Shown: positions 38,753 through 52,510, numbered from the stretch's first letter. The stretch is DNA of 52,510 nt from Candidatus Micrarchaeota archaeon (GCA_013425335.1 JACCLG010000046.1:1-52510); one strand, 5' to 3'. The notes: generated by a model not told the origin, from the letters alone. A program made the numbers and translations.

Positions 38753-38817
38753 AAAACCACCAACAAGTAGTAATTCGAAGTGAAACAATATAAAGATTGT
38801 TCGTAAAAATCATGTTA

Positions 38818-40581
38818 ATGCGAGTCAGCACTGGTCTTCTGGTAAAGATTATTGTAATAGCCGTAATTCTGGCTTTCGTCTTCTTCACAGTGACGCAGAG
38901 GGAATTTCCCAACTGGATTGGGGAGATAAGCAAAAACCCTGAAACGCCAAAGCTGCCATACTACATCTTCAGGACAATGCTGAGGATGATTGCGGCCTAT
39001 ATACTCGTCGTGATTTTCGGCCTTTCCTACGGGATAATCGCAGGCACATACGAGAGGCCAAGGAAGGTGATGATGCCCCTCCTTGACATACTGCAGTCCA
39101 TACCTGTCCTGGGCTACCTGCCTGCAGCCATACTATTCTTTGTTAACGTGTTTCCCGGGGAGCTGGGAGTTGAAATCGCATCCATACTCCTCATCTTCAC
39201 AGGAGAGGCCTGGGCTGTCACCTTCGGGATATTCGGGGCTGTGAGAAACCTGCCCGAGGACCTGAAGACAGTGGGCAAGGCCTTCGGTCTCGGAGGAGTT
39301 GAATACTACAGGAAGTTCCTCCTTCCCTGTATATTTCCTGCCTTCATAACAGGCAGCATACTGGCCTGGGGAGGCGGCTGGTACTTCCTGGTTGCCTGCG
39401 AGTTCATGACCTTTGGAGGCAGGCTCTACACACTTCCAGGGGTGGGCTACTACCTTGCCAATGCGGTCTATGTGCAGCACAGCATCGTATCCGCAATTTT
39501 CGGCCTTATCATTTTCATCCTGCTCATCTTCTCCATAGACAAGCTTGTGTGGACTCCTCTCATGGACTACTCGGAGAAATTCAAGGTTCAGACAGTTGAG
39601 CATGAGCAGTCCTACGCGCAGACTCATTCACTGTTCGTGAATTCATTTCGTTTTGTGGTGCATACCTTCGATGATGTGTGGGAGGGCATCTGCACAATGC
39701 CAATCTTCAAGAAACTCTCCCATGCGCTCAAGCCACCCAGGATTGTATTCAACCTGCAGGTGCCGCAGATAAATGTCAACCCCAGGAGGATGAGGCTCCG
39801 CAATCTTCTGCTTTCCATATTCCTCTTCTCGCTTGTCATGTACTTCCTCGGGCTGTTTGTTGCCGCCTCTGTCCAAAAACCGCTTGCAAATTTGGAGCTC
39901 TCCTTCCAAAACCACCCAGAGGCATACTCCATACCATTTATCACAGTAAGCTCGATACTGAGGATATTTGTTGCCTATGTAATCGCCCTTGTCTGGACCC
40001 TCGCAGCAGCCGTCATCATCACAAGGAGCAAAACCCTTTCACGGTTATTCCTGCCGCTTTTCGACATAGGGCAGTCAATACCTGCATTGGCTCTCTTCCC
40101 TTTCATAGTTATAGTGGTCTTCAAGTATTTCGGGACAGGCGAACTCGGAGTGGAGATTGCCTCGGTGATTCTGCTTCTCACAGGAACGCAGTGGTATCTG
40201 CTCTTCAACATCATAGGTGCCATAAAGCACATACCCGGAGATGTTATTGAGGCTGCCAACTCCTTTGGAATAAAGGACTGGAAGTTCGTGAGGTATGTCA
40301 TTCTCCCTGCAATATTCCCAGGCATAGTTGTCGGGAGCATACAGGCGTGGGGAGGCGCGTGGAATGCAACCATAGTGAGCGAGTACATCAACTACGGGGG
40401 GCAGATATACTCCGTGAACGGGCTTGGGGCTTTCATAAGCCGGGCCACAGGAGAGTGGGGGGACCCCTGGCTCATCACCATTGCCATAGCAACCATGTCG
40501 CTCACAATAATACTCCTCAACCGCTTCGTGTGGAGCTACCTCTTTGGAAAGGCAGAAAGATATAAATTTGAGATGACTTAA
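38818..40581 (+). CDS. ABC transporter permease, duplicated NitT/TauT-type
   Basis: Two DILQSIP/DIGQSIP TM modules; start could also be 38812. Confidence 0.88.
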   Translation: MRVSTGLLVKIIVIAVILAFVFFTVTQREFPNWIGEISKNPETPKLPYYIFRTMLRMIAAYILVVIFGLSYGIIAGTYERPRKVMMPLLDILQSIPVLGYLPAAILFFVNVFPGELGVEIASILLIFTGEAWAVTFGIFGAVRNLPEDLKTVGKAFGLGGVEYYRKFLLPCIFPAFITGSILAWGGGWYFLVACEFMTFGGRLYTLPGVGYYLANAVYVQHSIVSAIFGLIIFILLIFSIDKLVWTPLMDYSEKFKVQTVEHEQSYAQTHSLFVNSFRFVVHTFDDVWEGICTMPIFKKLSHALKPPRIVFNLQVPQINVNPRRMRLRNLLLSIFLFSLVMYFLGLFVAASVQKPLANLELSFQNHPEAYSIPFITVSSILRIFVAYVIALVWTLAAAVIITRSKTLSRLFLPLFDIGQSIPALALFPFIVIVVFKYFGTGELGVEIASVILLLTGTQWYLLFNIIGAIKHIPGDVIEAANSFGIKDWKFVRYVILPAIFPGIVVGSIQAWGGAWNATIVSEYINYGGQIYSVNGLGAFISRATGEWGDPWLITIAIATMSLTIILLNRFVWSYLFGKAERYKFEMT

Positions 40582-40596
40582 ACCTAGAGTGGAAAC

Positions 40597-41364
40597 ATGG
40601 CTCCGATACTAAGCGTACAGAACCTCAGCAAATCCTTCACGCAGGACGGGGGCAAGATGAAGGTTCTCAACAACATCACCTTTGACGTTCAGGAGCATGA
40701 GTTCATCTGCATTGTGGGGCAGAGCGGCTGCGGCAAGTCAACCCTTCTCAGGATAATTGCAGGCCTGGACAAGCCGACCTCTGGGGATGTGCTCTTCAAG
40801 GGCGAGCCAATAGACGGGCCCGACCCTCGCAGGGCGACCATGATATTCCAGACGTTTGCTCTTTTCCCGTGGCTCGATGTGCGCGAGAATGTGGAGCTGG
40901 CGCTTGAAGTCCTAGGGATGCCGAAAATAAAGAGGCATGCGATTGCGAGCCACTACCTGCGAATCAACGAACTTGAGAAATTCCAGAACTCCTACCCCTC
41001 CGAGCTTTCAGGAGGGATGAAGCAAAGAGTGGGCATCGCCCGGGCTTTGGCAGTTGAGCCTGAGATACTCCTCATGGACGAGCCCTTCTCAGCTCTTGAT
41101 GCTCTCACAGCGCAGACTCTGAGGAACGATGTGCTTGATATATGGAGGGACACCAGAATACCTACGAACACCTTCCTCATGATAACTCATCTTATTGAAG
41201 AAGCGGTGTTCATGGCAGACAGGGTGATTGTGCTCTCAAAAAGGCCTGCCAAAGTAATAGGCGACATACCAATAGACATACCGAGGCCAAGGACACAGCA
41301 TGAAAGGGACCCTGCCTTCTATGAGATATCGGACAGGATAAAGAAGCTCATAATGGCGGAATAG
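40597..41364 (+). CDS. ABC transporter ATP-binding protein (NitT/TauT family)
   Basis: GQSGCGKST, LSGGMKQR, LLMDEPFSALD, ITH. Confidence 0.93.
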   Translation: MAPILSVQNLSKSFTQDGGKMKVLNNITFDVQEHEFICIVGQSGCGKSTLLRIIAGLDKPTSGDVLFKGEPIDGPDPRRATMIFQTFALFPWLDVRENVELALEVLGMPKIKRHAIASHYLRINELEKFQNSYPSELSGGMKQRVGIARALAVEPEILLMDEPFSALDALTAQTLRNDVLDIWRDTRIPTNTFLMITHLIEEAVFMADRVIVLSKRPAKVIGDIPIDIPRPRTQHERDPAFYEISDRIKKLIMAE

Positions 41365-42378
41365 CTACCTGCACCTTCTTGTATCCAAATTGCATGACGA
41401 GCCTGGGCAATTCCAGTCGCCCTGGCACTGCGTGTTCAAAAGTGATACGCAGGTATACAGCTCGGCATCGCCTGGCACCAGGTCGCACCTCTGGGTTGAG
41501 GAGCAGTCAGCATCGCTGGCGCACATTCCCGCCCTTGTGACGCACTGGTGGCTGCTGCACGTCTGCCACCCTCCGCACTCGCTGTCAAGGTTGCACATGC
41601 CCTCCCTTGTCATGCATATGTGGTTGGCAGGGTCGCAAACCTGCCAGCTCTGGCAGTCCCTCGTGTCTGTGCAGTTACCTCTGTTTGCCTTGCAGAGCAA
41701 AGCCTGCTGGTCGCACGTCTGCCAGCTCTGGCAGTATGAGTCGTTTATGCAGTATCCTGCCATGAGGGCGCATTTGTGGTCTGACCCGCACGTGAATCTT
41801 GGGTCGCAGTCATAGTTGCTGTTGCAGAACCCAGCCTTTGCATTGCAGAAGTGGGTAGTGGCGTTGCATATTTCCCATCTCTGGCACTCGGAATCCTCCA
41901 TGCAGTAGCCGATATTTGCAGCGCAGAGATGCGTCTCGTTGTTGCAGTTCTGCCAGTTGGCGCAGTCATAGTCGTCTGAGCAGAAGTCAGCCTTTGCAAT
42001 GCAGATGTGCTTTGTCAGGTCGCACTCCTCCCAGCGGTTGCAGACTGCGTCGTCATCGCACCTGCCCGTGAGCGGGCTGCATTTCTGTGTTGAATTGTCG
42101 CAGAACTGCCAGTCCCTACAGTCATAATTGTCAAGGCAGTAGCCGCCCTTGTACGCGCATTTGTGGGTAGTCAAATCGCAGCCTTTCTTGGGGTCTGTGC
42201 AACCTGCGTCTGCAATGCAGTAGCCAGTCCCGGTGACGCACTTGCTTGTCTTTGTGTCGCACACCTGCCAGCTCGAGCAGTCCTTGTCCTGGGCGCATGT
42301 TTTTGCCGGAGTCTGCAGGCATCCGAAAATAGCGAGTGAAACCATTAGCAGAAGAACAATCATGATAGTGTTTCTCAT
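41365..42378 (-). CDS. Cysteine-rich repeat lipoprotein
   Basis: Signal peptide with IFGC; about 12 repeats of C..D.DC..WQ.CD..T..C....G. Confidence 0.8.
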   Translation of the reverse strand: MRNTIMIVLLLMVSLAIFGCLQTPAKTCAQDKDCSSWQVCDTKTSKCVTGTGYCIADAGCTDPKKGCDLTTHKCAYKGGYCLDNYDCRDWQFCDNSTQKCSPLTGRCDDDAVCNRWEECDLTKHICIAKADFCSDDYDCANWQNCNNETHLCAANIGYCMEDSECQRWEICNATTHFCNAKAGFCNSNYDCDPRFTCGSDHKCALMAGYCINDSYCQSWQTCDQQALLCKANRGNCTDTRDCQSWQVCDPANHICMTREGMCNLDSECGGWQTCSSHQCVTRAGMCASDADCSSTQRCDLVPGDAELYTCVSLLNTQCQGDWNCPGSSCNLDTRRCR

Positions 42379-42566
42379 CCCATCACTCCTTGGTACACTT
42401 CTAAAATTATTGCTCAATTTTGATTTATAAAGGTTATGTCTCTACCTGTCAGATACGTTATTTAAGCAGGGAATTTGCCAACCATGCCGGGAGGAAAACC
42501 GTAAATGCGGAAGGTATACGACTTGCAAGGTAAATGCTTAAAAGGCGGAAATGAGCAAATTAATGG

Positions 42567-43268
42567 GTGATGTTTATGGGCGACAATGTGGGAGGTTCCT
42601 CAGGAGGAGAAGTAGGGGATGGGATTAGAGCTACTAGGGAGCCAGTAGCACTGAAAACAAAGGAAGAGAAGCCGATGATGCTCGGAAAGATGAAGGTTGA
42701 GTTTGTTGATTCTGCAGGCTTGAAGAAACAACATGATTTTGATATTGTTGGATGGCGAGCGGACCTACTGGGTAAAGAAGAGAGAGTGGTCATGGGAAAG
42801 AGGACAGCTGGAAGCTTCTTAAGGGATACCGGATTACACCCCGGGGGAAAGAATTTAAAGGAGAGGGTATACGCAAATGAGTCGGTGCTGCTGGCTACTC
42901 CAACACTTCAAGGTAAACTGACTAATGATGAAATTTCAAAAAAAACACTGGGAGTAGGATTTAGATATGTGTATGAAACTGACGATAAAAATGCCGTCAA
43001 TTCAGCTGACTTATTGTCATCGTATCAGGTGAATATAGCACTCAAGCTGGGAGAGGACGGGAAGTTCCAACGTCCTTCTTCTGTGAAACTATCCTATGAC
43101 TCTGGCGGCCGAACAATAGACCTTGATAGAATCCAGGAGCTGGTGGATGAAATCAACAAGCTTTTCAAGGAATCGGCTGAAATCAGGGCATGGTTCAAGA
43201 AAGATACGGGGCTGGAATGGGGAGTCAAGGGAAACACTGAAGAATTCAAAAAGCACAGCCAGAAATAA
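42567..43268 (+). CDS. Hypothetical protein
   Basis: Open frame with GGTGA signal; start uncertain (42576 likely). Confidence 0.55.
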   Translation: MMFMGDNVGGSSGGEVGDGIRATREPVALKTKEEKPMMLGKMKVEFVDSAGLKKQHDFDIVGWRADLLGKEERVVMGKRTAGSFLRDTGLHPGGKNLKERVYANESVLLATPTLQGKLTNDEISKKTLGVGFRYVYETDDKNAVNSADLLSSYQVNIALKLGEDGKFQRPSSVKLSYDSGGRTIDLDRIQELVDEINKLFKESAEIRAWFKKDTGLEWGVKGNTEEFKKHSQK

Positions 43269-43399
43269 GCTGCCCCGAAGCAGGAAGGTAGAGGAAACCT
43301 GCAGGGTTTCTCTTGGGAGGTTATAAGGAACCGTGAGGTTCCTCTTGAGGCAGAAAGGCTTATATACCTAATTATAGATAATTCTATAGGTGGTTATAG

Positions 43400-43639
43400 A
43401 TGAACTATACAAGTATTCAAATCTCTCCGGAAACGAGGGCAAAGCTGGGCAAGTTCAAGGAGTACACAAGGGAGACCTACGACGAAGTGCTGAACAAGCT
43501 CATGTCTATTGTGGAACTCGCAAGGGATGAGGGAAAGCTCAGCGATGAAACACTTCAGGACATCGCGGAAGCCAAGAAGCAGTATGCCAGCGGGAAAACA
43601 TTCTCAACCAAGGAAGTGCTGGAGAAGCTCGGTGTCTAG
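43400..43639 (+). CDS. Antitoxin, RHH-like
   Basis: TSIQIS.ETR.KL..K....ETYDEVL; abuts relE. Confidence 0.8.
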   Translation: MNYTSIQISPETRAKLGKFKEYTRETYDEVLNKLMSIVELARDEGKLSDETLQDIAEAKKQYASGKTFSTKEVLEKLGV

Positions 43640-43891
43640 ATGACTTACGAACTTGTCTGGACGCCAAAATCACTCCAGAGGCTGAGGGAGCTCGACAGGA
43701 AAACTGCCCTCCGCATTGCGGAGAAGCTCGAGGGGGCAAAGGAGTTCCCGCACCATTTCTTCATAAAGCTGGCCGATGCCGATTCCTGGAGGATGCGCAT
43801 CGGGGACTACAGGGTGATATGCTTCATTGAGGATAAGGAGAGGAAGCTTGTCGTGGAAACGCTGGGGCACAGGAAGAAAATCTACAAATGA
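43640..43891 (+). CDS. relE: RelE/ParE family toxin
   Basis: WRMRIGDYRVI...LGHRKKIY. Confidence 0.9.
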   Translation: MTYELVWTPKSLQRLRELDRKTALRIAEKLEGAKEFPHHFFIKLADADSWRMRIGDYRVICFIEDKERKLVVETLGHRKKIYK

Positions 43892-44045
43892 GCAGGCGGC
43901 AGGGGGTGGAGGGAACCGCCAGGTTCCTCTTTTGGGCAATCCCGAGCCATCCAGTCTTTTCAGGTGATGCAGAGCTATTTAAAGAGTGAAAGACAAAACA
44001 TCAATGCCAATGAAGACAGCATACGAGGCAATTATAATCTAAGAG

Positions 44046-44543
44046 TTGATGCTCATGGCGCATGGAGCCGAGGTACCTTATTGGATTTATGCACCGCACA
44101 CGGAGAAAAAGGAACTGGTGCTGGTTGCAGGGCAGAATTTCAAGGATGCTATCGTCACAAAGCGGGCGGACGGGACTTGGAAGGGGAGCGGCCTTTATGA
44201 GAGGGAAGAGGCCGGCCTCAAGGTGCCAATTGAAATTCGCATAAGCTACGAGAAGAAGCTTTCCGAGAAGCACGGTGCGGTAAGGGTTGTAGTGGAATTC
44301 AAGGATGAGAAATACGGGAAACTGGACAAATTCGACCTGACCTTCAGGGAGGGGGGGCTGCCGAGGCGCTGGAAGCTGGAAACGCCGCATGAAACTCCTC
44401 TGGGTGAAGCGGTGAAGACGCCCGAGTGGGAGCGGATGCTGAAGGGCTTTTTGGAATACGATACCGCAGGGGAATGGCTGAAGATGAGGAAAAAGGAGCT
44501 TCTTGACGGGAAAATCATCTCACAAGGCCTCAGGCGGGAGTGA
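44046..44543 (+). CDS. Hypothetical protein
   Basis: 165-aa ORF; start uncertain. Confidence 0.5.
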   Translation: MMLMAHGAEVPYWIYAPHTEKKELVLVAGQNFKDAIVTKRADGTWKGSGLYEREEAGLKVPIEIRISYEKKLSEKHGAVRVVVEFKDEKYGKLDKFDLTFREGGLPRRWKLETPHETPLGEAVKTPEWERMLKGFLEYDTAGEWLKMRKKELLDGKIISQGLRRE

Positions 44544-44584
44544 ACTGCGTATGCCTATTTAAGCGGGGAATTCGCAATATTAAT

Positions 44585-44643
44585 GCCGATGACGACATGA
44601 ACAACCACTGATACAACATGATGAGGTCAACAGCGTCCGAGGC
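44585..44643 (+). ncRNA. Box C/D guide sRNA
   Basis: GCC stem, C ATGACGA (44589), 12-nt guide, D' CTGA (44608), C' ATGATGA (44618), 12-nt guide, D CCGA (44637), GGC; TATTTAA about 25 nt upstream. Confidence 0.8.
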
Positions 44644-44877
44644 CTTGTTGATTTTACGACGGAGAATTACATTAATACCGAGGATACGCTGACCTCATCA
44701 TCTTTTTAAGATTGCTTTGACTTTATGTAACTCCGTACCGTCTTTTCATCTATTCAAAAGAAGGAAGAGCGAATTCCTCTCTTGCTTTAAGAATTTCTCT
44801 AAAATCTTTCTTGCTCACTCCAAGCTTCATTTCCGCAAGTTCCTCCGCAACACTAAACTCCACCTTCTCAAGCAATA

Positions 44878-46149
44878 TTATGTCTGTTTGGGACTTTCGT
44901 ATTTCTGAATCAACAGCTCATATTCTGGTGAGAAAAACGTCCTAACAACCTCGAATGCATGGACCCTTCCTTCGAATGTGAGTGCGAGTCTATCGGATGT
45001 CGCCTCAACGTATCCCTTCCTTTCGAGTTTGCAAATTTGATTTTGAAAAACAATCTCCATTGGCATTCCAAACATTGATTCGAATACTTTGTTGTCCACC
45101 TGCAGGAATAGCAGCTGCTTTGCGACATATCTCACCATCCGTTCATGCGCGGTAAGCTTTTTCCCAAGTTCTACCGGCATTTTTCCGTCTGCGAGCAGCT
45201 CCAGATATCGCGCGGATGCCTTTACATTACGGTACACGAATCCGTCATAGTAGGAGAACGCTCCGGCCCCGAGCCCTATCACAGAGTGCCCTGCCACATA
45301 GAGCCCATACCTGTTCTCATGCCTCCTCACGCACGCCTGGTCTATCGAATAGCGCGAAAAGCCGTTTTTTGAAATCGCCTCATCCGTTATTTCAATCATC
45401 CGCCTCAAATCATCAAGTAGCGGCATTCGCCCGACCCGCCCTTCATTAACATGGCGGTAGAGCGGCAAGACTGGAACCAGGTCAAGGGCGTATATGCTCA
45501 AGTGCTGCGCGCCGGTAGAAAAGAAAACTGCGATGTCGTTCTCCCACGCGGTTGTCGTTTGTCCCGGGCGGGCGTAAAGCAGGTCAACGTTCACGTCCAG
45601 CCCCCCCGATTGCGCCATCGAAATTGCTGTTTTTGCCTGGGTCGAGGTGTGCGAACACCCGAGCGAGCGCAGCCCTTCAGGTTCAAAAGTTTGCACCCCA
45701 AAGCTTACGCGTGAAACGCCCATTTTGGCGAGACCGCCTAAAAACGCCTCGCTCGCTGAACTTGGGTTCGCCTCAACGGTTATCTGACAGTCTTCTGAGA
45801 AGTCAAATGTCTTCCTGGCATTGTCGATTAGTCCTTGGATGGATGAGACTGGGAGAAGGGAAGGCGTTCCGCCCCCGACGTACACGCATTCTATGCGCGC
45901 GGAAGAATGCCTCCGGCTATTTGCAACTAGCCTCATTTCTTTTTCAACGCCCTTCACATAAGCTTCAAGATGCTCTTTCCCCTTGGGGATTTCCTTGGTA
46001 AATGGGCAGTAATAGCAGAAGCGGCTGCAGAAAGGTATGTTTATGTATAACGCCGTATGGGTCGGCCCGCTAATGTCTTCCCATCCGGCCCTCGGCAAGG
46101 CCGGCGGATAATCATAGAACCTCCCAATGCTCGTTGTCATTCGTTTCAT
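44878..46149 (-). CDS. HemN-like (class C methyltransferase-type) radical SAM enzyme
   Basis: LYINIPFCSRFCYYCPF, YVGGGTPS, EANP, RVSFGVQTF, NVDLLY..PGQ, GLGAGA. Confidence 0.88.
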   Translation of the reverse strand: MKRMTTSIGRFYDYPPALPRAGWEDISGPTHTALYINIPFCSRFCYYCPFTKEIPKGKEHLEAYVKGVEKEMRLVANSRRHSSARIECVYVGGGTPSLLPVSSIQGLIDNARKTFDFSEDCQITVEANPSSASEAFLGGLAKMGVSRVSFGVQTFEPEGLRSLGCSHTSTQAKTAISMAQSGGLDVNVDLLYARPGQTTTAWENDIAVFFSTGAQHLSIYALDLVPVLPLYRHVNEGRVGRMPLLDDLRRMIEITDEAISKNGFSRYSIDQACVRRHENRYGLYVAGHSVIGLGAGAFSYYDGFVYRNVKASARYLELLADGKMPVELGKKLTAHERMVRYVAKQLLFLQVDNKVFESMFGMPMEIVFQNQICKLERKGYVEATSDRLALTFEGRVHAFEVVRTFFSPEYELLIQKYESPKQT

Positions 46150-46157
46150 CCCAGTTA

Positions 46158-46209
46158 ATTTCTTAAATAAAAAACAAAGAAAGAAGCGAGAAAGACTGTC
46201 CTCTCCGCT
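46158..46209 (-). terminator. Hairpin plus U-tract between the peptide gene and the radical SAM gene
   Basis: AGCGGAGAG...CTTTCTCGCT followed by TCTTTCTTTGTTTTTT on the minus strand. Confidence 0.55.
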
Positions 46210-46213
46210 ATCC

Positions 46214-46261
46214 TTAACCCATGAAATGGACTAGCTCCACTTTGATTCCATCATATTCCAT
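46214..46261 (-). CDS. 15-aa peptide MEYDGIKVELVHFMG (candidate RiPP precursor or leader peptide)
   Basis: Perfect GGAGGTGA SD 5 nt before the ATG; directly upstream of the radical SAM gene. Confidence 0.7.
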   Translation of the reverse strand: MEYDGIKVELVHFMG

Positions 46262-46423
46262 CGTTTTCACCTCCGATAAATTTTTTTCGGACTAGAGCCC
46301 AAAGAAAGGCATGACGGGATGCTTGTTCCGCCATGCGACATTTTCTACTGGCCCGAATGGGATATGTTTATAAATGCCAATTATATAATTATTATGCATA
46401 AAATAAAGCAAATTTAATTAGAA

Positions 46424-47095
46424 ATGATTAAAATGAAGCAAACAAGCGCCGCTGTGAGAGAGGCTGTAGGGCGGCATCCGCTCATACGGAGAGCAATGGC
46501 TGCGCGAATCCTCAACTACTCGGCCGCCGCGCGCGCCATCCGGAAAGAGGTGGAATCGCTTGTCGGCAGGGATGCCGAAGCATCCGCGATTGTATCCGCC
46601 CTCGCAAGGATGGAATCTGAAGACGCGCCAAGGGCAGAGAAGTTAGAGATCCGCCAGCTGCTTCTCAAGTCGGGCCTGTCGGATATCGCGCTCAGGAGGA
46701 ACGAAAGGACGATAACTCTTGTAGAATCTACCCGACAAAAGACCGATTTCGGCGCCGGCGAGACTCTGATAGAAACACTTGGGGACCACGAGATAAACGT
46801 GGTTACAGAAGAACGGATTGCAGGGGAGCTGCTCAGGAATGTGTCGGAAAAAGATGTCCTCAGACATTATGAGCGAGTGTGCGAGCTGTGCATTTACATA
46901 ACTGAGAACATGTCGAGAGTACCAGGCGTTTTCGCCGCCATAACGCTCCACCTGGCGGCAAACGACATAAACGTTCTCGAATGCTTCTCAACACTCACTG
47001 AGTTCTCTGTCGTCGTCGAGCAGGAGGATGCCCAGCGAGCTTATGCCGCCCTGCAGGAGCTCGTCGCTGAGTCTTCGAAGGCGAGAAAACGATGA
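46424..47095 (+). CDS. HTH plus ACT-domain amino-acid-sensing regulator
   Basis: ILNYSAAARAI...AIVSALAR; VPGVFA.I...LA..DINVLE..ST.TE. Confidence 0.75.
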   Translation: MIKMKQTSAAVREAVGRHPLIRRAMAARILNYSAAARAIRKEVESLVGRDAEASAIVSALARMESEDAPRAEKLEIRQLLLKSGLSDIALRRNERTITLVESTRQKTDFGAGETLIETLGDHEINVVTEERIAGELLRNVSEKDVLRHYERVCELCIYITENMSRVPGVFAAITLHLAANDINVLECFSTLTEFSVVVEQEDAQRAYAALQELVAESSKARKR

Positions 47096-47225
47096 GGTTT
47101 TTCTGCGGGGGGTGCCAGTCGATTCGCCGATTTCTCGGTCGGAGCAAATAGTTTAATATTTAACAAGCTAAATAGTACTCAGGAAAGTGTGCCTTGTGAC
47201 TGAGGTTATCAACGCGATAAGGTCT

Positions 47226-47287
47226 ACAGCGTCCGAGGCAAAACGAATTCTACGACGTAAAATTAGACTAATTTAAGATTGTTTTGG
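47226..47287. repeat. Copy B of sRNA 3' end plus junction site
   Basis: ACAGCGTCCGAGGC...TACGAcGTAAAATTAGACTAATTTAAGATTGTTTTGG. Confidence 0.85.
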
Positions 47288-47299
47288 CTTGAGAATTAC

Positions 47300-47836
47300 T
47301 TAAAGCATCTTTGTATAAAGATACTCCGTTTTTTTGAATCCAACGTGCTCAAGCAAGGCTTGCATTGCAGTCTCTCTTGTGCTGCAGTATGCGGATGCTA
47401 CCCCTTCAGTTTTGCACTCCTCAAGCACTATCTCTAGGGCCTTGCTGCCTATCCTATTCCGCTTTAGCTCTGGTTTCTCTCCGAGCTCGTTTTTCTCCTC
47501 TCCCTTTTTCCCAACTGGGTAGAAGTCTTCAATCATAACAGTCCTATCATCGTCTTTCAAGCCGCAGCCGGTAAAGATATCATGCAGCCTAGAGGCTCGG
47601 AGATCGCCAATCCTCCTGTGCCGCACAGTTACGTACCCTATCTTCTCTTCCTCATCAGAGCCCGGTCGCGTCAGGAAAACATCATATTTTGCTTCTCTCC
47701 TTTCCCAATTCTCCGCATCACTCCGCCCGAAGAAAGCGTTTCTAGTTATCATCAGAGGACTCTCGGCAACTCTCAACTGTATGGTTCCAGCTTTCGTTTC
47801 CTTCTTTTCCATTGGTTCTTCCTTAACCCAAGCCAT
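47300..47836 (-). CDS. GNAT-like acetyltransferase
   Basis: LKRNRIGSKALE...AMQALLEHVGF resembles GNAT motifs A and B. Confidence 0.55.
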   Translation of the reverse strand: MAWVKEEPMEKKETKAGTIQLRVAESPLMITRNAFFGRSDAENWERREAKYDVFLTRPGSDEEEKIGYVTVRHRRIGDLRASRLHDIFTGCGLKDDDRTVMIEDFYPVGKKGEEKNELGEKPELKRNRIGSKALEIVLEECKTEGVASAYCSTRETAMQALLEHVGFKKTEYLYTKML

Positions 47837-47870
47837 GCCTAAATTATGCCTCTTTTGATATTTAAGCTTG

Positions 47871-47932
47871 ACAGCGTCCGAGGCGAAACGACTTTTACGA
47901 AGTAAAATTAGACTAATTTAAGCTTGCTTTGG
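47871..47932. repeat. Copy C of sRNA 3' end plus junction site
   Basis: ACAGCGTCCGAGGC...TACGAaGTAAAATTAGACTAATTTAAGCTTGCTTTGG. Confidence 0.85.
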
Positions 47933-47992
47933 GGCAGGCGGGAGGTGGAATTATGATTATTGCTCCCGGACCTGTTACGCACCTTCTTCCTC

Positions 47993-48166
47993 TTATAATC
48001 CCAGCTTTACCAATAAGCTCTTTTGGTAGTCCTTGCCTATTTTCTTATTAACTCGTTCTATATTCTCATCAAAGCAATTCCTACACAGAAAAAATGTAGC
48101 ACTTGAACTAACTTTCCTATCCTCAATACGGCAACTTGCTTCCTTTCCACACTCATAACATTTCAT
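47993..48166 (-). CDS. 57-aa zinc-finger microprotein (MKCYECGKEA...LCRNCF)
   Basis: Two CxxC pairs; GGGGGTGA SD; below the ORF-track cutoff. Confidence 0.65.
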   Translation of the reverse strand: MKCYECGKEASCRIEDRKVSSSATFFLCRNCFDENIERVNKKIGKDYQKSLLVKLGL

Positions 48167-48350
48167 CTATCTCACCCCCTCTTCATCTAAATCCTTAATT
48201 CTATCTAACTCGCCTAACAACTCTCCCATTCACCCACCCAGAAGTAGTTAGCATTCTGAGTATACTAAGATTGCTTTGGCTTCTTTTTCTTCTCTGCATT
48301 TTTCTCAATTTATCATAAGTCCAAACGATGAAGCAAGAAATAGGGCATAG

Positions 48351-48440
48351 TTACCTACGTCTCCCACCAAACCTCCTACTTTCCGCTCTTTTCGCTCGTT
48401 TCTCCATCCTTCTTTTTCTTTGTTTGGAAAAGCAACTCAT
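48351..48440 (-). CDS. 29-aa arginine/lysine-rich microprotein
   Basis: MSCFSKQRKRRMEKRAKRAESRRFGGRRR; GGTGAT SD. Confidence 0.45.
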   Translation of the reverse strand: MSCFSKQRKRRMEKRAKRAESRRFGGRRR

Positions 48441-48473
48441 TATATCACCACATAATAATTTGAACTGAGAGTA

Positions 48474-49082
48474 TTAAGCTTGCTTTGACTTCTCAGCAAT
48501 AAAGACCCAGTCATTTTTACTGCGTCCCTCACCAAGTGAAATGATTTTGGATAATCTATCATCAAGTAAAATGAATCCAGCATTTTTGAGTCGGTTTCTC
48601 ACTTCTTCTACCTCCTTGTCAGTGAATAAGCTTTCAAGTACCGCAACCCCATTAGGTTTGAGAGCTCTATATATCTCATTTATCATTGTTTTTTGTTCAT
48701 CTCTCCCGAATTGTAGGTCCAATACAAAATGACAAGTCGCTGCATCAAAGGTCCTATCTTTGACTGGGATTTTATTCCCTTCCCCTAAAAGGAGATGTAT
48801 ATTTTCAATCTTCCCAGCTTTAATTTTGTTTTTTAATATCCCAAGCGATACTTCAGAAAAATCCACACCAGTAACATCAAAACCTTCCTTTGCTAGGAAA
48901 ATTGAGTTTCTACCGCCTCCGCAACCAATATCAATTACATTTCTGACTCCGTGTTCCTTAAGAAGAGAGATAAGTTCTGCACCAGTTTTTCTTGGTGGCC
49001 TTTCAGCTTGATCTTTAGCATATTTAACCCATTCTGAGGACTCACGCATGAATTTATCTTTTTCAAGGACTTTTAGAGCCAT
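48474..49082 (-). CDS. Class I SAM-dependent methyltransferase
   Basis: VIDIGCGGGRN, VTGVDFS, TFDA, RALKPNG. Confidence 0.9.
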   Translation of the reverse strand: MALKVLEKDKFMRESSEWVKYAKDQAERPPRKTGAELISLLKEHGVRNVIDIGCGGGRNSIFLAKEGFDVTGVDFSEVSLGILKNKIKAGKIENIHLLLGEGNKIPVKDRTFDAATCHFVLDLQFGRDEQKTMINEIYRALKPNGVAVLESLFTDKEVEEVRNRLKNAGFILLDDRLSKIISLGEGRSKNDWVFIAEKSKQA

Positions 49083-49184
49083 GCTTATATTATATCAGTT
49101 TTGCTATTTAAACCCCAAAGAAACCGAGTCTGCTTCATTTAAACTTTTAAGAAAAGTTTAATCAAAATAACCCTGTTGAAAAAG

Positions 49185-50222
49185 TCACCGGGAAACATCC
49201 TCCCAGGCATTCTTTATAGCGTTGTAAAACTTCTTCGCATAAGCCCGGCCAGCAGTCAGGAAATCCTCAAGAGCGCTGGAGAACCTCTTCTCTGAGAGAT
49301 AAAGAATGCCCCTCGCCATATGAACTGAAATGAAATCCGGGTTCAGCTCAAGAGCCTTGGTGTAGTCTTCAATAGCCTTCCTGTATTCGTATTTTCGTTT
49401 GTAAGAATCCCCGAGCTGGCCTTTCCGGGAGTAAGCATTCGCCCTGTTCGCATATACATCGGCATCATTCGGATTCTGCTGGATAGACATTGTATACTCA
49501 AAGATGGCGCCGTCATAGTCCCATTCACGGGCACAAGCAAGACCTTTAGAAGCATAGGCAATCGCGTCAATGACCCTCGGGTCGGAAGTTTCGGAGTATA
49601 CCCTGGGGTATATCTTGTGTAGCTCCTTAAGAGGGTAATACGCTGCAAAATCCTTAACGGTTGTCTCGAAGTAGAAATCCTCCGTAGCGACAAGTGCATG
49701 GCTAGGGACTATGACCATCTTGACCGGTATGCCCAGCTCCTTTGCGACATCAAAGACAAGCGTGGAGGAATTATCGCAGTCCCACAAATTCTTGTCAAGC
49801 GACTCAGACAGCAAGCCGAACTTGTTAGTTCCATAGCTCATATTGACATTGCCGTAGATTACACCCCAAACCCCAGTTATGAAGTCCTCCTGCATCTGCT
49901 TCTTGCCTTTTTCTGAAAGCCCCTCGTAACCTGCAATCTCATCCTTGAGTATGTCCGCAATGGAGCCGACCAGATTGAGGTACTGCTTCACGTATGTTTC
50001 ACGCTTGCTATGAAAACCGAACCCCAGCTCTATATTAATCCTCATTTCCCCGGCATATTCATTAGTTCCGAAGCGCATTTTGTGCTGAGGCGCTTCCTTC
50101 ATCCTGACTTCCAGAAATGGGGCTACAGAAGGTTTTTCCTCCTTCTCACCCCTTCTGAATAAATCCCTGAATCTATGCAGGGGTGACTCCTCTTCTGGCT
50201 TTTTTGCAGTAGCTTCTACCAT
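49185..50222 (-). CDS. Transglutaminase-like domain plus TPR repeat protein
   Basis: WDCDNSS...VPSHALV...FETT (Cys-His-Glu); TPRs AIFEYT..I..NP, AIEDYTKALELNP. Confidence 0.7.
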   Translation of the reverse strand: MVEATAKKPEEESPLHRFRDLFRRGEKEEKPSVAPFLEVRMKEAPQHKMRFGTNEYAGEMRINIELGFGFHSKRETYVKQYLNLVGSIADILKDEIAGYEGLSEKGKKQMQEDFITGVWGVIYGNVNMSYGTNKFGLLSESLDKNLWDCDNSSTLVFDVAKELGIPVKMVIVPSHALVATEDFYFETTVKDFAAYYPLKELHKIYPRVYSETSDPRVIDAIAYASKGLACAREWDYDGAIFEYTMSIQQNPNDADVYANRANAYSRKGQLGDSYKRKYEYRKAIEDYTKALELNPDFISVHMARGILYLSEKRFSSALEDFLTAGRAYAKKFYNAIKNAWEDVSR

Positions 50223-50286
50223 AACAAACTCTGATTATTGCTCATTTTCCCTTTTTTAAGCTTCTTAGAGATAGCTCCCAATCCGA

Positions 50287-51255
50287 CTACTCTTTAATGA
50301 TTTTTTTAGCAACTTTCTGAAATTCGTCAGCCGCATCTTTCTTTTCTTTCTCGATTTTCTCCAGCTCATTAAGGATTTCCCAGAACCTCTTGCTTTTTAT
50401 GAGCGATTGGAAACTATCCTTAAAAGTTTTCTCGCATTCTCCAATTAGCTCTTCCCCAACCTCGCCTGTTTTGGTGAAAGCCGCAACAAAAAAAGGCTGA
50501 TTCTCCACAGCATTCCCGCTGTAATCACTCCAAAGTTTCATAACATCGCGGTTGAGCTTAAATTTCTCTACATTTCTCACTTCCAGTGGAATCCCTCTCA
50601 TTTCCTCAACCGGATACGCGGAAATCGCCCTGGCAAACCCTCCGATTACCAGCACGCCGTCTTGCTTCAGTAGTTTTGTCGCCTCGAGAATATTGAGCTT
50701 ATCGGTTGATGACATCATGGCGTTGAGAAGTACATGAATCTTAAACTCTTCTGACTCCCTGATTTTTCCGAACTCTTTCACGCTAAATCCCTTTTCAAAA
50801 GATTTGCCGTACTTTGCAAAGAAACGGTAATAAAAGCCCACAACCGCATTTGGCGAATTCAGCAGAACAGCTGCATCCGCACCAGCAACCGGCACACTTG
50901 ACATATCACCGATAACCCTGAACTTCTCGCCTTTTCCCTCTTTATCAAGGCGATGGAAATCCTTGGATTTCCCAAGCTGCTCCCTGCTCAAATCAACAAC
51001 AACATAATTGAATTCCTTCTTTGCTACCTTCTCAACAACATCTTTAAGTCTTCCTCGTCCACCTGCTATATCGACAATTGTGATTGGTTCTTTACTTTCA
51101 TTAATCATCTCCGCGAGCCCTGAGACTGAAACTGCTTTCTCATAAAACTTATCCATAAGGGGGCTGCTCGAAACCTTCTCATGGAATGAGGTAGGGTAAA
51201 AATTCTGGAACCTTGCCAGGACCTTACCTTCTTCTGGTTCGAGTAACCTGTACAT
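50287..51255 (-). CDS. Class I SAM-dependent methyltransferase-like protein
   Basis: IVDIAGGRG, VVVDLS..QL, IGDM, LLKQDGVL. Confidence 0.65.
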   Translation of the reverse strand: MYRLLEPEEGKVLARFQNFYPTSFHEKVSSSPLMDKFYEKAVSVSGLAEMINESKEPITIVDIAGGRGRLKDVVEKVAKKEFNYVVVDLSREQLGKSKDFHRLDKEGKGEKFRVIGDMSSVPVAGADAAVLLNSPNAVVGFYYRFFAKYGKSFEKGFSVKEFGKIRESEEFKIHVLLNAMMSSTDKLNILEATKLLKQDGVLVIGGFARAISAYPVEEMRGIPLEVRNVEKFKLNRDVMKLWSDYSGNAVENQPFFVAAFTKTGEVGEELIGECEKTFKDSFQSLIKSKRFWEILNELEKIEKEKKDAADEFQKVAKKIIKE

Positions 51256-51459
51256 GCCTAAATTATGCCTCTTTTTCTATTTAAGCTTGCTTTGTTTTTT
51301 TTATTTTTGAATGAGTACTTAAGTCCACTAGAGATAGCTTATCGGTTATGTAACCATGGTTACATCTCTCTCAGGCACTTTTTGAGGTTCTTATAGCAGG
51401 AAGTATTATAAATATATACTTATATAAACTTATACACATAAAGCTCGTATGGTGATAGG

Positions 51460-51744
51460 ATGACAACCCTTTCAAAAACCCTTTACAGGGATGATGTGCT
51501 GCATTACCCTAATTTGAAAACCGTTCTATTGGTGGAGGATTTGCTGAAAAACGCAGATAAAGCAATCTCCAGGGAAGAGATAAAGAGAATCCTGGGAGGC
51601 AGGGTCATGCACCAGACGCTCAATGTGATACTGAAATACCTGGAATACAGCGGAAAGATAGTTGTCAGCAGAAAAGGAATCGTCTGGATATACAACCCAA
51701 GCAGGAAGCTGGCGGAAGCAATAGAAAAAGGAGTGGAACATTGA
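51460..51744 (+). CDS. Winged-helix antitoxin-like protein
   Basis: YPNLKTVLLVE...L..LE.SGKI; TTGA overlap with the toxin. Confidence 0.65.
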   Translation: MTTLSKTLYRDDVLHYPNLKTVLLVEDLLKNADKAISREEIKRILGGRVMHQTLNVILKYLEYSGKIVVSRKGIVWIYNPSRKLAEAIEKGVEH

Positions 51745-52109
51745 GGCAGGTTAGGGTTATTTTTGAAGCGGAAACCGACAAGGCTTACAGGGAATTGGTT
51801 AAAATTGCTGCCGAGGAAAAGAGAAACGGGCTGGAGAACTCTGACAACCAGAGACTTCTAAAGTCAATAGACAACAAGGTGGAAAGACTGAAACTGGACC
51901 CGACTGCAGGGGATCAGCTGCCTGCCAGGCTATTCCCAAAAGAATATGCGGAGAAATACAAGATAAACAACCTGTGGAAGATAGACCTGGTGGATTTCTG
52001 GAGGATGCTGTATACGCTGAGGGGAGACAGGGTCGAAGTGGTCTGTCTTATACTCGGGTACATGTCCCATCCGGAATATGACAAGAAGTTTGGGTACAGG
52101 AAGAAGTGA
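51741..52109 (+). CDS. RelE-like toxin
   Basis: LK.DP..G....P.......NLWK.DL..FWRMLYTL......H.EY.K.FGY. Confidence 0.7.
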   Translation: MRQVRVIFEAETDKAYRELVKIAAEEKRNGLENSDNQRLLKSIDNKVERLKLDPTAGDQLPARLFPKEYAEKYKINNLWKIDLVDFWRMLYTLRGDRVEVVCLILGYMSHPEYDKKFGYRKK

Positions 52110-52188
52110 TTGAATCAATGACTAATGCTCCCAAGAGTTTCAATTCAAAAGGTCTTTGTAACCATGGTTACATTCTGCTCTGCTGTAT

Positions 52189-52510
52189 CTACCTTCGCCT
52201 ATGTTTCCAGTTGCGCGAGCCTTTTCCCCCAGACCTCTTTTGGCGTTTGCCCTTCCATCCGGCCACCTCGAAGTCTATGAACCCCTTGTTCGGATTCAGG
52301 TTTATGAGCCTCACCATCACCTTCTGGCCCACCCGGAGGCCTCTCACTCCGCGCATCACGCGTCCTTCAGCCGGCGGTGCAATGAGCCGCACGTATGTGC
52401 CATGGTCAGAGACTCCTGTGACTATGCTGTTGAATGACTGGCCTATCTTTCCTGAAAGGACGAATGCCGCCTCAGCCTTCTCCATGAACCTTTCCACCTT
52501 CTTTGATGCC
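52189..52510 (-). CDS. RNB/RNase R-family ribonuclease, C-terminal S1 part (truncated by window edge)
   Basis: KVER....AA.....IGQSF..IVTG....GTYVRL..PPAEGR...G.IDF plus basic tail. Confidence 0.75.
   Translation of the reverse strand, partial: ASKKVERFMEKAEAAFVLSGKIGQSFNSIVTGVSDHGTYVRLIAPPAEGRVMRGVRGLRVGQKVMVRLINLNPNKGFIDFEVAGWKGKRQKRSGGKGSRNWKHRRR

What the first reader, a model, noticed from the sequence alone, without database searches (positions are those of the whole stretch)
44585..51340. Candidate integron-like cassette array whose junction sites double as promoters
Seen: (T/C)TAAG followed by (A/C)TTG(C/T)TTTG recurs at gene junctions at 44706, 47273, 47918, 48265, 48474 and 51281 (partial at 47862). 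I did not notice it in the housekeeping region. The fullest copies read TTAGACTAAT-TTAAG-CTTGCTTTGG, a pseudo-palindrome. On the minus strand the site reads CAAAGCAAGCTTAA, i.e. BRE plus TATA, about 25-35 nt ahead of several of the ORFs. The methyltransferase at 48474 takes its stop codon from the site, as integron cassette ORFs do from attC. Cargo is unrelated and mostly co-oriented (radical SAM, GNAT, microproteins, methyltransferases, transglutaminase-TPR). Inference: a tyrosine recombinase captures genes here, and crossover at the TATA box gives each cassette a promoter.
Basis: partly seen in the sequence, partly recalled or inferred. Interest (0 to 1): 0.85.

Follow-up and report, generated by a model that had tools for sequence, protein, structure and literature searches.

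The report
Promoter-led gene cassette island in Micrarchaeota
A short DNA word that recurs between genes in this tiny archaeon is a shared promoter heading single-gene units that related species gain, lose and reorder, so the locus looks like an integron in layout but lacks an integron's machinery.

Summary
The 14-nt word occurs six times exactly, all on one strand, between 44706 and 51294; shuffles expect 0.3. Read on the minus strand it is aAGC-CAAAGCAAKC-TTAATATA, an extended BRE plus TATA box. It sits 34-72 nt ahead of start codons of unrelated genes.

The word is not the genome's ordinary promoter. It has 23 copies in 1 Mb, and only the five genomes of the same genus carry 6-16 exact copies each.

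The stretch is a hypervariable island between a small-RNA-like gene (44585-44643) and an RNase R-type gene (52189-end). Flanking core genes are 70-84% identical between congeners. Single cassettes recur elsewhere at 94-99%, with different neighbours and in a different order. Six of nine homology end points lie within 20 nt of the motif.

It is not an integron. No integrase is adjacent, the genome's integrases are XerA-like, no attC core pairs were found, and every cassette has its own promoter. Break points fall at variable positions in and around the motif, which favours recombination through a portable conserved promoter module. Larger blocks appear to enter at RNA-gene 3' ends; a second hotspot at tRNA-Arg shows displaced tRNA fragments. 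A dedicated crossover inside the motif is not excluded (about 15%).

The parts
44585..44643 (+). Small-RNA-like gene (C/D-box-like) that anchors the island. Its 3' end, ACAGCGTCCGAGGC (44630-44643), is the repeated 'core'.
   Evidence: Weak Rfam hit sR14, 21.3 bits against gathering 38, E 0.014. Boxes and 12-nt guides were read by eye, and a TATA-like box lies about 30 nt upstream. The element is conserved at the same place in G001, G002 and G003 at 81-93%. No exact 11-nt target for the D' guide was found in G002, so the assignment is inconclusive.
44706..44719 (-). Motif copy 1. It faces the 3' end of the small-RNA-like gene and has no ORF downstream.
44878..46149 (-). Radical SAM, HemN/HutW-like (423 aa).
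   Evidence: Pfam Radical_SAM 5e-17. NCBIfam HutW/HemW models match below cut-off. No DNA match in the 5 congeners.
46424..47095 (+). DUF7523 plus ACT domain protein (223 aa), opposite orientation.
47136..47287 (+). Full copy of the multi-copy 'D1' element. It has its own TATA, then AGGAAAGTG..., a hairpin, the core (47226-47239), the 17-nt palindrome ATTCTACGACGTAAAAT, and the motif.
   Evidence: Thirty core copies were found in G000 plus 20 loci of congeners. The RNA structure is inconclusive.
47273..47286 (-). Motif copy 2 (CAAAACAATCTTAA), facing D1.
47300..47836 (-). GNAT-like gene (178 aa). It is flanked by 70-nt direct repeats 47218-47287 and 47863-47932 (87% identical).
   Evidence: D1 family; weak Acetyltransf_1.
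47862..47870 (-). Half motif (AAGCTTAAATA...) that forms the GNAT promoter. The 5' half CAAAGC is replaced by the core copy at 47871-47884.
47918..47931 (-). Motif copy 3, followed by a truncated D1 3' part.
47993..48229 (-). Cassette with a 20-aa ORF and a 57-aa zinc-ribbon ORF.
   Evidence: It differs by 2 mismatches in about 317 nt from G003:C13, where it has different neighbours.
48265..48278 (-). Motif copy 4 (CAAAGCAATCTTAG), promoter of the zinc-ribbon cassette.
48351..48440 (-). 29-aa Arg/Lys-rich micro-ORF cassette.
   Evidence: It is 94% identical to copies in G001:C42, which lies inside the tRNA-Arg hotspot, and in G004:C3, where the order is swapped.
48474..48487 (-). Motif copy 5. 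It is the promoter of the micro-ORF and supplies the stop codon of the methyltransferase.
48474..49082 (-). SAM-dependent methyltransferase (202 aa).
   Evidence: Pfam Methyltransf_25 1e-20.
49185..50222 (-). TPR protein (345 aa) with an ordinary (non-motif) promoter. The hairpin AAACTTTTCTTAAAAGTTT at 49141-49159 marks its 3' edge.
   Evidence: It is 85% identical to G002:450100-451220. Break points at 49140 in runs X1 and X2.
50287..51255 (-). 322-aa ORF with no family hit. It carries the motif ITIVDIAGGRGR, read by eye as SAM-binding.
   Evidence: 74% DNA identity to G001:C40.
51281..51294 (-). Motif copy 6, a leaderless-type promoter (ATG at +39) of the 322-aa ORF.
51348..52173 (+). Two-gene ParE-like toxin-antitoxin module (51460-52109), bracketed by identical 17-nt palindromic direct repeats TGTAACCATGGTTACAT (51349-51365 and 52157-52173). 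It is an insertion relative to G001, G002 and G003.
52189..52510 (-). 3' end of an RNB/S1 exoribonuclease (RNase R type) that closes the island. The full gene is 509 aa in G003 and has its own motif promoter there.
   Evidence: It is 95-96% identical in G001, G002 and G003.

Best explanation
The motif is the core of a genus-specific, portable promoter module of 25-50 nt: aAGC-CAAAGCAAKC (extended BRE), TTAATATA or TTAAATA (TATA box), then one of two conserved initiator/5' UTR forms. One form runs to ...GGCATAATTTAGGCATG, probably leaderless. The other runs to ...CTAACTACTTnTGGGTGGnTGAATG and includes a Shine-Dalgarno sequence. The stretch 44.6-52.2 kb is a hypervariable island lodged between a small-RNA-like gene and an RNase R-type gene of a Micrarchaeota (DPANN) archaeon. 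It is built of one- or two-gene transcription units, most of them led by this module. Congeners hold different units at the same locus, and identical units recur elsewhere with other neighbours.

Shown: the motif, its positions relative to ORFs, its restriction to the genus, the turnover of cassettes, and the clustering of homology ends at the motif.

Inferred: because break points lie at several positions in and beside the module, the module most likely acts as portable homology through which cassettes are exchanged (homologous or short-homology recombination, possibly through circles). Larger blocks enter by integrase-type recombination at RNA-gene 3' ends. At the tRNA-Arg locus the displaced tRNA fragment is visible. 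In the window the repeated core ACAGCGTCCGAGGC plays that part.
For: Promoter. Of 23 sites within 1 mismatch of CAAAGCAAKCTTAA in the genome, 11 have the next same-strand called gene starting at +34 to +72. Three more have an ATG-led ORF there that my crude gene caller missed (and the sequence printed for 33315). About 2% is expected for random positions (my arithmetic: 516 same-strand starts per 1.005 Mb times 39 nt). The motif fits the genome's own promoter consensus: in 114 TATA-aligned upstream regions A is 0.54 and 0.50 at -4 and -3, C is 0.35 at -10, and the TATA is TTTAAATA or TTAATATA. The GC-containing upstream part is not general; AAAGCAA occurs in 9 of 114.

Genus-specific. All 5 of 5 congeners have 6-16 exact copies, 3 of 25 more distant relatives have 1 each, and the reversed control gives 0 everywhere.

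Turnover. Window 36000-42444 is syntenic in all 5 congeners at 70-84% identity, and synteny stops at about 42445. Beyond that point matches are cassette-sized: 43315-43894 at 95%, 47918-48282 at 97%, 48245-48474 at 94%, 48296-48487 at 94%, and 52154-end at 95-96%. G003 has transglutaminase-like, NosD, radical SAM/SPASM and methyltransferase genes between the same two landmarks. G002 has almost nothing there. The order of the micro-ORF and zinc-ribbon cassettes is swapped in G004. Six of 9 end points of matches with at least 90% identity and at least 150 nt lie within 20 nt of a motif copy, and those zones cover 3% of the region.

Variable break points. They fall at motif position 1, 8/9, 9/10 and about 21, just before the SD, and inside an ORF end.

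RNA-gene att. At gatE...tRNA-Arg, G004 has no insert. G000, G001 and G002 have inserts of 0.56-0.8 kb bounded by the tRNA and a displaced fragment, ACGCCCC(C)ACGGGGAT. These inserts carry motif-led cassettes, among them the window's micro-ORF cassette.

Population variants. Contigs of four runs break at 48261, 48474, 49140/49141, 51349 and 52157. In run X1 a joint from 47292 to 49140 at depth 5.6 stands beside the MAG's own depth of about 9.5.
Against: No transcription start or RNA data exist for this organism, so promoter function rests on geometry and consensus. About 16 of 82 motif copies (5 at tRNA 3' ends, 11 at D1 arms) point into a convergent RNA gene and have nothing to drive. Several patterns are what a crossover inside the motif would leave. 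(1) The inserted block 47932-51294 is bracketed by motif copies, while G003 and G001 have a single copy at the same junction. (2) The two halves occur separately: the G002 tRNA-Arg cassette starts at the TATA without CAAAGCAA, its ORF ends in AAGCCAAAGCAGTCTTGA with no gene after it, and the GNAT promoter lacks the 5' half. (3) Of 13 long frames that read into 79 motif copies, 9 use the one frame that stops in CTTAA. The module is short (14-50 nt) for classical homologous recombination. The cassette order in the MAG may partly be an assembler's path through repeats: among the 8 listed own-depth pieces of X1, only the junctions at 44706 and 48474 are bridged, and 179 further pieces were not shown.
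Confidence: 0.6

Rival explanations
1. An integron analogue. The motif is itself a recombination site. A recombinase acting in trans crosses over between CAAAGCAA and KCTTAA, excising and inserting circular cassettes. Each cassette brings TATA plus gene and leaves its tail (AAGCCAAAGCAA, often coding ...KQS*) against the next promoter.
For: Motif copies bracket every cassette of 47918-51294, while G003 and G001 have one copy at the equivalent junction. The right-hand break points of two cassettes fall at motif positions 8/9 and 9/10. Half motifs occur alone at junctions. A tandem pair of motif copies 33 nt apart occurs in G003:C13. The stop-codon frame is biased, 9 of 13. The same micro-ORF cassette sits in two different hotspots, each time between motif copies.
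Against: No recombinase gene is next to any array. The nearest is 41 kb away in the window and 5.6 kb away in G002, and G001 and G005 have no PF00589 hit at 91% completeness. No serine recombinase or Y1 transposase was found in G000. The site has no dyad symmetry (10 of 25). Other break points lie at position 1, about 21, about +43, or inside ORFs. The TATA and 5' UTR of the zinc-ribbon cassette are only about 70% identical where the body is 99.4% identical, so the proposed 'start of cassette' is not inherited with the cassette.
Confidence: 0.15
2. A regulon signature. The motif is conserved because a dedicated factor reads it. One candidate is the extra single-repeat TBP paralogue that the islands of this genus carry; another is a repressor that binds the upstream AAGCCAAAGCAA. 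Cassette turnover is then ordinary island dynamics with no role for the motif in recombination.
For: The motif is genus-specific. So are island-borne TBP paralogues next to motif copies, found in G000, G002 (2), G003, G004 and G005 (2), while most relatives outside the genus have one TBP gene. The TBP paralogue is itself motif-driven. A 17-nt palindrome lies at the expected start site in the D1-type copies.
Against: The paralogue resembles the core TBP closely: 76% at DNA level, and both sequences are printed with the DNA-facing FPGAI and LLLFKNGK segments alike, read by eye. That gives no sign of a new specificity. A regulon does not explain conserved 5' UTRs, motif copies that face RNA genes, or homology ends at the motif.
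Confidence: 0.2
3. A selfish miniature repeat (MITE or REP-like) or an assembly artefact, with no role in expression or recombination.
For: It is a multi-copy short repeat clustered in islands, and contigs of all runs break at it.
Against: There are no terminal inverted repeats or target duplications around single copies. Orientation and distance to start codons are fixed. The motif is present in six independently assembled genomes, one of them nearly closed, at homologous places. No Y1 transposase was found.
Confidence: 0.04

Closest known systems
Integrons, including those reported in archaeal MAGs (Ghaly et al. 2022, PMC9668308; passages read)
   Same: A tandem array of short, unrelated, mostly co-oriented ORFs with a recurring junction sequence. 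Content varies between relatives. Some ORFs take their stop codon from the junction. Cassettes are shared between genomes at much higher identity than core genes.
   Different: There is no IntI: the window's integrase and the C51 one, the two of three that were scanned, are XerA-like and lack a match to the IntI-specific part. No attC-type imperfect palindromes were found. No attI or Pc is present; every cassette carries its own promoter. Break points are not at one fixed position.
Genomic islands integrated in tRNA/tmRNA genes (Islander database, PMC4383910; abstract seen in the listing); 'gene capture' by archaeal integrases (She et al. 2001, recalled, not seen)
   Same: An intact RNA gene lies at one end and a displaced 3' fragment at the other. 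This is clear at tRNA-Arg. In the window, three copies of the small-RNA 3' core have different left arms. Contents differ between relatives, and blocks accumulate in tandem.
   Different: The inserts are tiny (0.56-0.8 kb at tRNA-Arg; 0.65-3.4 kb blocks in the window) and hold no integrase. One target is a C/D-box-like small-RNA gene instead of a tRNA. Inside the blocks a second, promoter-delimited level of shuffling is seen.
Putative mobile promoters / promoter reuse (Nijveen, Matus-Garcia and van Passel 2012, PMC3575422; main text read)
   Same: Highly similar upstream sequences stand in front of non-homologous genes within a genome and between related genomes. How they move is unknown.
   Different: This is an archaeal BRE/TATA module of 40-50 nt, shorter than that study's criterion of at least 50 nt. 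It includes the 5' UTR and SD, is confined to one genus, is concentrated in hypervariable islands, and coincides with cassette boundaries.

Membership tests
Integron | intI gene (tyrosine recombinase with the IntI-specific additional domain) next to the array | tested here: not met
   G000 has PF00589 hits only at C30:2588-3085 (41 kb away), C51:11372 and C16:278. The two scanned score 50-53 bits on TIGR02249 against a cut-off of 265, and only the N-terminal part of the model is matched. Their best model is XerA, at 105-115 bits against a cut-off of 220.
Integron | attC sites: paired core sites RYYYAAC...GTTRRRY 55-150 nt apart forming an imperfect hairpin | tested here: not met
   Zero pairs on either strand of 44001-52000; mononucleotide shuffles give a mean of 0.54. 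This was a simple core-site scan, not IntegronFinder's covariance model.
Integron | Promoterless cassettes expressed from a common Pc | tested here: not met
   Each unit has its own BRE/TATA 34-72 nt ahead of its start codon.
Integron | Array of unrelated cassettes whose content differs between close relatives | tested here: met
RNA-gene-anchored genomic island (Islander type) | Intact target RNA gene at one end and a displaced 3' fragment at the other | tested here: met
   At the tRNA-Arg locus the fragment ACGCCCC(C)ACGGGGAT is present in G000, G001 and G002 and absent from the empty site in G004. In the window the core ACAGCGTCCGAGGC lies at 44630, 47226 and 47871 with different left arms. 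The RNA nature of the window's target is only weakly supported.
RNA-gene-anchored genomic island (Islander type) | Integrase gene inside the island | tested here: not met
   None lies between 42445 and 52510 or in the tRNA-Arg inserts.
Archaeal BRE/TATA promoter | A/T-rich octamer with a purine-rich BRE directly upstream, at promoter distance from the gene | tested here: met
Archaeal BRE/TATA promoter | Transcripts that start about 22-27 nt downstream of the TATA box | not testable with these tools
   No RNA run is available for this organism.
Putative mobile promoter (Matus-Garcia et al. 2012 criteria) | At least 80% identity over at least 50 nt upstream of non-homologous genes | tested here: inconclusive
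   Identity is high but the module is shorter. For example 47834-47870 against 51253-51289 is 37 nt at 95%, and modules span about 40-50 nt at roughly 85-90%.
C/D box sRNA (for 44585-44643) | C, D', C' and D boxes with 12-nt guides and an rRNA or tRNA target | tested here: inconclusive
   Rfam sR14 scores 21.3 bits, below the gathering score of 38. The boxes AUGACGA / CUGA / AUGAUGA / CCGA were read by eye. The D' guide has no exact 11-nt target in G002 outside the gene itself. G000 holds no rRNA.

The most novel reading that the evidence does not exclude
The motif is both a promoter and the crossover site of a previously undescribed archaeal cassette-capture system. It would work like an integron but without IntI or attC. 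Circular single-gene cassettes would recombine at CAAAGCAA|KCTTAA, each arriving with its own TATA box, mobilised in trans by XerA-like integrases of DPANN archaea.
Probability: 0.15. Interest if true: 0.85.

Novelty: new variant of a known kind. Interest (0 to 1): 0.55.

Why it matters
DPANN archaea have very small genomes, and little is known about how they acquire and express new genes. This locus shows, at nucleotide level, a flexible gene pool that moves between species of one Micrarchaeota genus as single-gene units. Each unit is pre-equipped with one shared promoter module, and the units collect at hotspots beside small RNA genes. If the module serves as the recombination handle, promoter and mobility signal are the same sequence, which would explain how foreign genes are expressed at once. 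The module also gives a concrete strong-promoter candidate for a lineage that has no genetic tools. It also makes the question testable: does recombination occur at one fixed site in the module or anywhere in its homology?

Tried and rejected
Rfam at gathering threshold finds only tRNA-Gln in the window. At E up to 5 over 44300-48600 there is one weak C/D hit and one chance-level hit.

The D1 element as a structured RNA. A single fold gives z = 0.21. RNAalifold on 14 copies gives -1.09 kcal/mol with 0 compensatory pairs. My own hairpin has 1 pair with a two-sided change, and 34 of 500 shuffles reach its covariation score. I left this as inconclusive. A + strand peptide reading of D1 (…STASEAKRILRRKIRLI*) was dropped because d-type copies have a stop directly upstream in that frame (by eye).

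C/D target search. No rRNA is in G000, and no exact 11-nt target is in the genus.

The motif (19-mer) and the core (20-mer) have 0 hits in IMG/VR viral contigs.

No serine recombinase or Y1 transposase is in G000 at 89% completeness.

PADLOC gives only a generic methyltransferase-domain match to mad2, so no defence system is called.

The G/T position of the motif is only loosely tied to the downstream class: A 7 G / 2 T; B 15 G / 25 T / 2 C; D1 3 G / 8 T. It therefore does not locate a crossover.

My ORF test with ORFs of at least 30 aa was uninformative, because 56% of random positions pass it. I used called-gene starts instead.

The look-up of sequencing runs: no RNA holder listed. Parts of the window without cover in runs X2-X4 are not interpreted.

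Literature: a search for single-repeat TBP in DPANN found nothing relevant. I did not use structure prediction, the Atlas search, the complex tool or the representative-protein search.

Full report
THE OBSERVATION. The pattern YTAAGMTTGYTTTG has six exact copies in the window, all on the + strand, at 44706, 47273, 47918, 48265, 48474 and 51281. There are two 1-mismatch copies, at 20493(-) and 33302(+). Dinucleotide shuffles give 0.30 matches on average, and none of 100 reached 8. In the whole 1.005-Mb, 55-contig assembly (G000; the window is contig C30) there are 16 exact copies. The other ten include clusters of four on C51 (52.6-60.9 kb) and three on C49.

WHAT THE MOTIF LOOKS LIKE ON THE OTHER STRAND. 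Reverse-complemented it reads aAGC-CAAAGCAAKC-TTAATATAC or -TTAAATAG. There are 23 sites within one mismatch of CAAAGCAAKCTTAA in the genome. Downstream of them two conserved forms recur.
- Form A runs ...TTAAATAnnnnAAAGGCATAATTTAGGCATG, with the ATG at +39.
- Form B runs ...TTAATATACTCnGAAnnCTAACTACTTnTGGGTGGnTGAATG, with an SD-like GGGTGG and the ATG at about +50.
The proteins behind them are unrelated. Eleven of the 23 sites have the next called gene on the same strand starting at +34 to +72. Three more have short or mis-called ORFs there. I expect about 2% for random positions.

The genome's general promoter was derived from 581 upstream regions. It is TTTAAATA or TTAATATA (50 and 20 exact copies) preceded by a weak A-rich BRE. 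The motif obeys that consensus, but its G/C-containing upstream part is not general: AAAGCAA occurs in 9 of 114 TATA-aligned regions. So this is a special, extended promoter module and not the ordinary promoter. Genes behind it in G000 include:
- a single-repeat TBP paralogue;
- PsbP-like, HAD and CAP proteins;
- two GNATs and two AbrB/MazE-domain proteins;
- a ZIP transporter and a T2SSE-ferredoxin ATPase;
- an HTH-IrrE protein;
- several ORFs with no family hit.
None of those scanned is a ribosomal or other core informational gene.

WHO HAS IT. The best homologues of a TBP gene of this genome are named Candidatus Micrarchaeota/Anstonellales. Among 30 relatives, all 5 genomes of the same genus have 6-16 exact copies, 3 of the other 25 have one each, and the reversed control gives none. 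In the nearly closed G002 the copies again form clusters.

THE LOCUS IS A HYPERVARIABLE ISLAND. BLASTN of window 36000-52510 against the five congeners shows 36000-42444 syntenic in all five at 70-84% identity. Synteny then stops. Beyond that point matches are patchy, cassette-sized and much more similar:

| Window segment | Content | Match | Identity |
|---|---|---|---|
| 43315-43894 | DUF7557/ParE pair | G001 | 95% |
| 47918-48282 | zinc-ribbon cassette | G003:C13 | 97% |
| 48245-48474 and 48296-48487 | micro-ORF cassette | G001:C42 and G004:C3 | 94% |
| 49140-50259 | TPR gene | G002 | 85% |
| 52154-end | RNB/S1 exoribonuclease | G001, G002, G003 | 95-96% |

Two landmarks are shared: a small-RNA-like element at 44585-44643 and the exoribonuclease gene. 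Between them G003 carries transglutaminase-like, NosD-like, radical SAM/SPASM and methyltransferase genes that are unrelated at DNA level. G002 carries about 190 nt. In G004 the micro-ORF cassette is preceded by the 3' end of the zinc-ribbon cassette, the reverse of the window's order.

Of nine end points of matches with at least 90% identity and at least 150 nt, six lie within 20 nt of a motif copy, in zones that cover 3% of the region. The other three lie at short palindromic direct repeats.

Logan contigs of four metagenome runs break at the same places: 48261, 48474, 49140/49141, 51349 and 52157. The run that holds 95% of the stretch contains, beside the MAG's own contigs at about 9.5x, a joint from 47292 to 49140 at 5.6x and a G002-like joint from 47929 to 49140 at 121x. 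A caveat follows. Among the eight listed own-depth pieces only the junctions at 44706 and 48474 are bridged, so part of the cassette order could be an assembler's path through repeats.

IS IT AN INTEGRON? No.
- The only tyrosine recombinases of G000 are at window 2297-3493 (41 kb away, beside an AbiEii gene), on C51 and on C16.
- The window's integrase and the C51 one, the two scanned, match archaeal XerA below cut-off. They reach 50-53 bits on the integron-integrase model (cut-off 265) over its N-terminal part only.
- G001 and G005 carry motif arrays but have no PF00589 hit, and in G002 no integrase adjoins a cluster.
- A scan for attC core-site pairs found none.
- The 'pseudo-palindrome' is 10 of 25 self-complementary.
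- Each cassette has its own promoter.
By the criteria used for archaeal integrons, IntI and/or clusters of canonical attC sites (PMC9668308, passages read), this is not one.

WHERE DOES RECOMBINATION HAPPEN? There are two layers.

(1) RNA-gene 3' ends. The locus gatE...tRNA-Arg(gcg) is a second hotspot.
- G004 has no insert.
- G001 has an insert of about 0.8 kb, bounded by the tRNA and a displaced fragment ACGCCCC(C)ACGGGGAT. It contains the very micro-ORF cassette of the window between motif copies.
- G000 has a 0.59-kb insert with a motif-led 142-aa membrane gene.
- G002 has the same gene inverted.
- G005 has a different gene.
This is the classical signature of integrase-mediated insertion into a tRNA gene, but the inserts are tiny and hold no integrase.

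In the window the same logic applies to the 3' end of the small-RNA-like gene. The core ACAGCGTCCGAGGC occurs at 44630, 47226 and 47871, always followed by the same right arm (a 17-nt palindrome plus the motif) and preceded by different left arms. Thirty such cores with at least four kinds of left arm occur in G000 and the fetched loci. The GNAT gene is bracketed by 70-nt direct repeats of this unit at 87% identity. Motif copies also abut tRNA 3' ends in G002 (twice, 20 kb apart, as if attL and attR) and in G005.

(2) The motif itself. Inside 47918-51294 the only repeated junction sequence is the motif, and G003 and G001 have a single copy where the window has four copies with three blocks between them. 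Exact alignments show where identity ends.
- The zinc-ribbon cassette is 99.4% identical from its SD to CAAAGCAAG of the next motif (position 9/10). Its own TATA and 5' UTR are only about 70% identical.
- The micro-ORF cassette starts at motif position 1 and ends at position 8/9 of the next copy.
- The TBP-paralogue cassette is 91-94% identical among five genomes. It starts at position 1 in G000 and G004, lacks the TATA in G002, and ends after position about 21 or inside the ORF.
Break points therefore cluster at the module but not at one bond. I read this as exchange through a short conserved module (portable homology) and not a fixed-site crossover.

I keep the alternative open for four reasons: half motifs occur alone at junctions; a tandem motif pair exists; 9 of 13 long frames that enter the motif use the one frame that stops in CTTAA; and 14-50 nt is short for homologous recombination.

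COMPARISON WITH WHAT IS KNOWN. In layout the island resembles an integron array. In mechanism the better-supported relatives are tRNA-anchored genomic islands (Islander abstract) and 'putative mobile promoters', which are similar upstream sequences before unrelated genes whose mode of movement is unknown (PMC3575422, main text read). What differs is the combination. This is an archaeal BRE/TATA/5' UTR module confined to one DPANN genus. It heads single-gene cassettes, coincides with their boundaries, and sits in hotspots at a tRNA and at a small-RNA-like gene. I found no description of this in searches. Those covered open-access text only, and supplements were closed.

VERDICT. My confidence is about 0.85 that the motif is a promoter and about 0.9 that the stretch is a cassette island with inter-species exchange. 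It is about 0.5 that exchange is homology-driven rather than site-specific.

Noticed in passing
G000:C19:19716-19961 (L037:1474-1776) and G000:C51:57130-57489 (L024:11131-11490): Both TBP genes of this genome encode a single TBP repeat (100 aa and about 103-119 aa). In 29 of 30 relatives with a hit, the reading frame is 100-145 aa; only G030 has a two-repeat frame of 192 aa. Named Micrarchaeota TBPs in the protein database are about 190-200 aa with two near-identical repeats. A homodimeric TBP would be symmetric, leaving promoter direction to BRE/TFB. The genus has extra island-borne paralogues. My search found no paper on this.
   Followed up: partly
window 43327-43346 and 43912-43931; 51349-51365 and 52157-52173: Both toxin-antitoxin modules (DUF7557/ParE at 43400-43891; ParE-like pair at 51460-52109) are bracketed by short palindromic direct repeats (GGAACCGnnAGGTTCCTCTT; TGTAACCATGGTTACAT). 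Homology with other genomes and runs ends at these repeats. They may be insertion scars, antitoxin operators or terminators.
   Followed up: partly
window 1105-4858: A second mobile-looking patch holds a 398-aa tyrosine recombinase with a C-terminal zinc ribbon (2297-3493, -) next to an AbiEii nucleotidyltransferase toxin gene (1616-2203, -).
   Followed up: no
G002:C1:341443-414983: Three identical integrase hits spaced 25,989 nt apart (341443, 367432, 393421), each with a second weaker hit at the same offset. This looks like a tandem triplication of a roughly 26-kb integrated element, or an assembly repeat.
   Followed up: no
G000:C49:9642-10326 and the same locus in G001, G002, G004 and G005 (L043-L052): gatE...tRNA-Arg(gcg) is a second cassette hotspot with displaced tRNA 3' fragments. 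Two conserved genes present in G001, G002 and G004 are missing in G000 and G005.
   Followed up: yes
window 44878-51255 and L004:10976-15565: The cargo at this locus has recurring themes in two species without DNA homology: radical SAM, SAM methyltransferases, transglutaminase-like or TPR proteins, and Arg/Lys-rich micro-ORFs. This is reminiscent of peptide-modification genes. It was not tested.
   Followed up: no
G000:C38:1172-1263: ARAGORN calls a 92-nt 'tRNA-Stop (tta)'. It may be an intron-containing tRNA or a false call.
   Followed up: no
window 52189-52510; G000:C51:62262-63407: The RNase R-type gene and a DUF7118 gene, which are neighbours in G003, are 91-96% identical among congeners whose core genes are 70-84% identical. 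The recently exchanged region therefore extends beyond the cassette array.
   Followed up: partly
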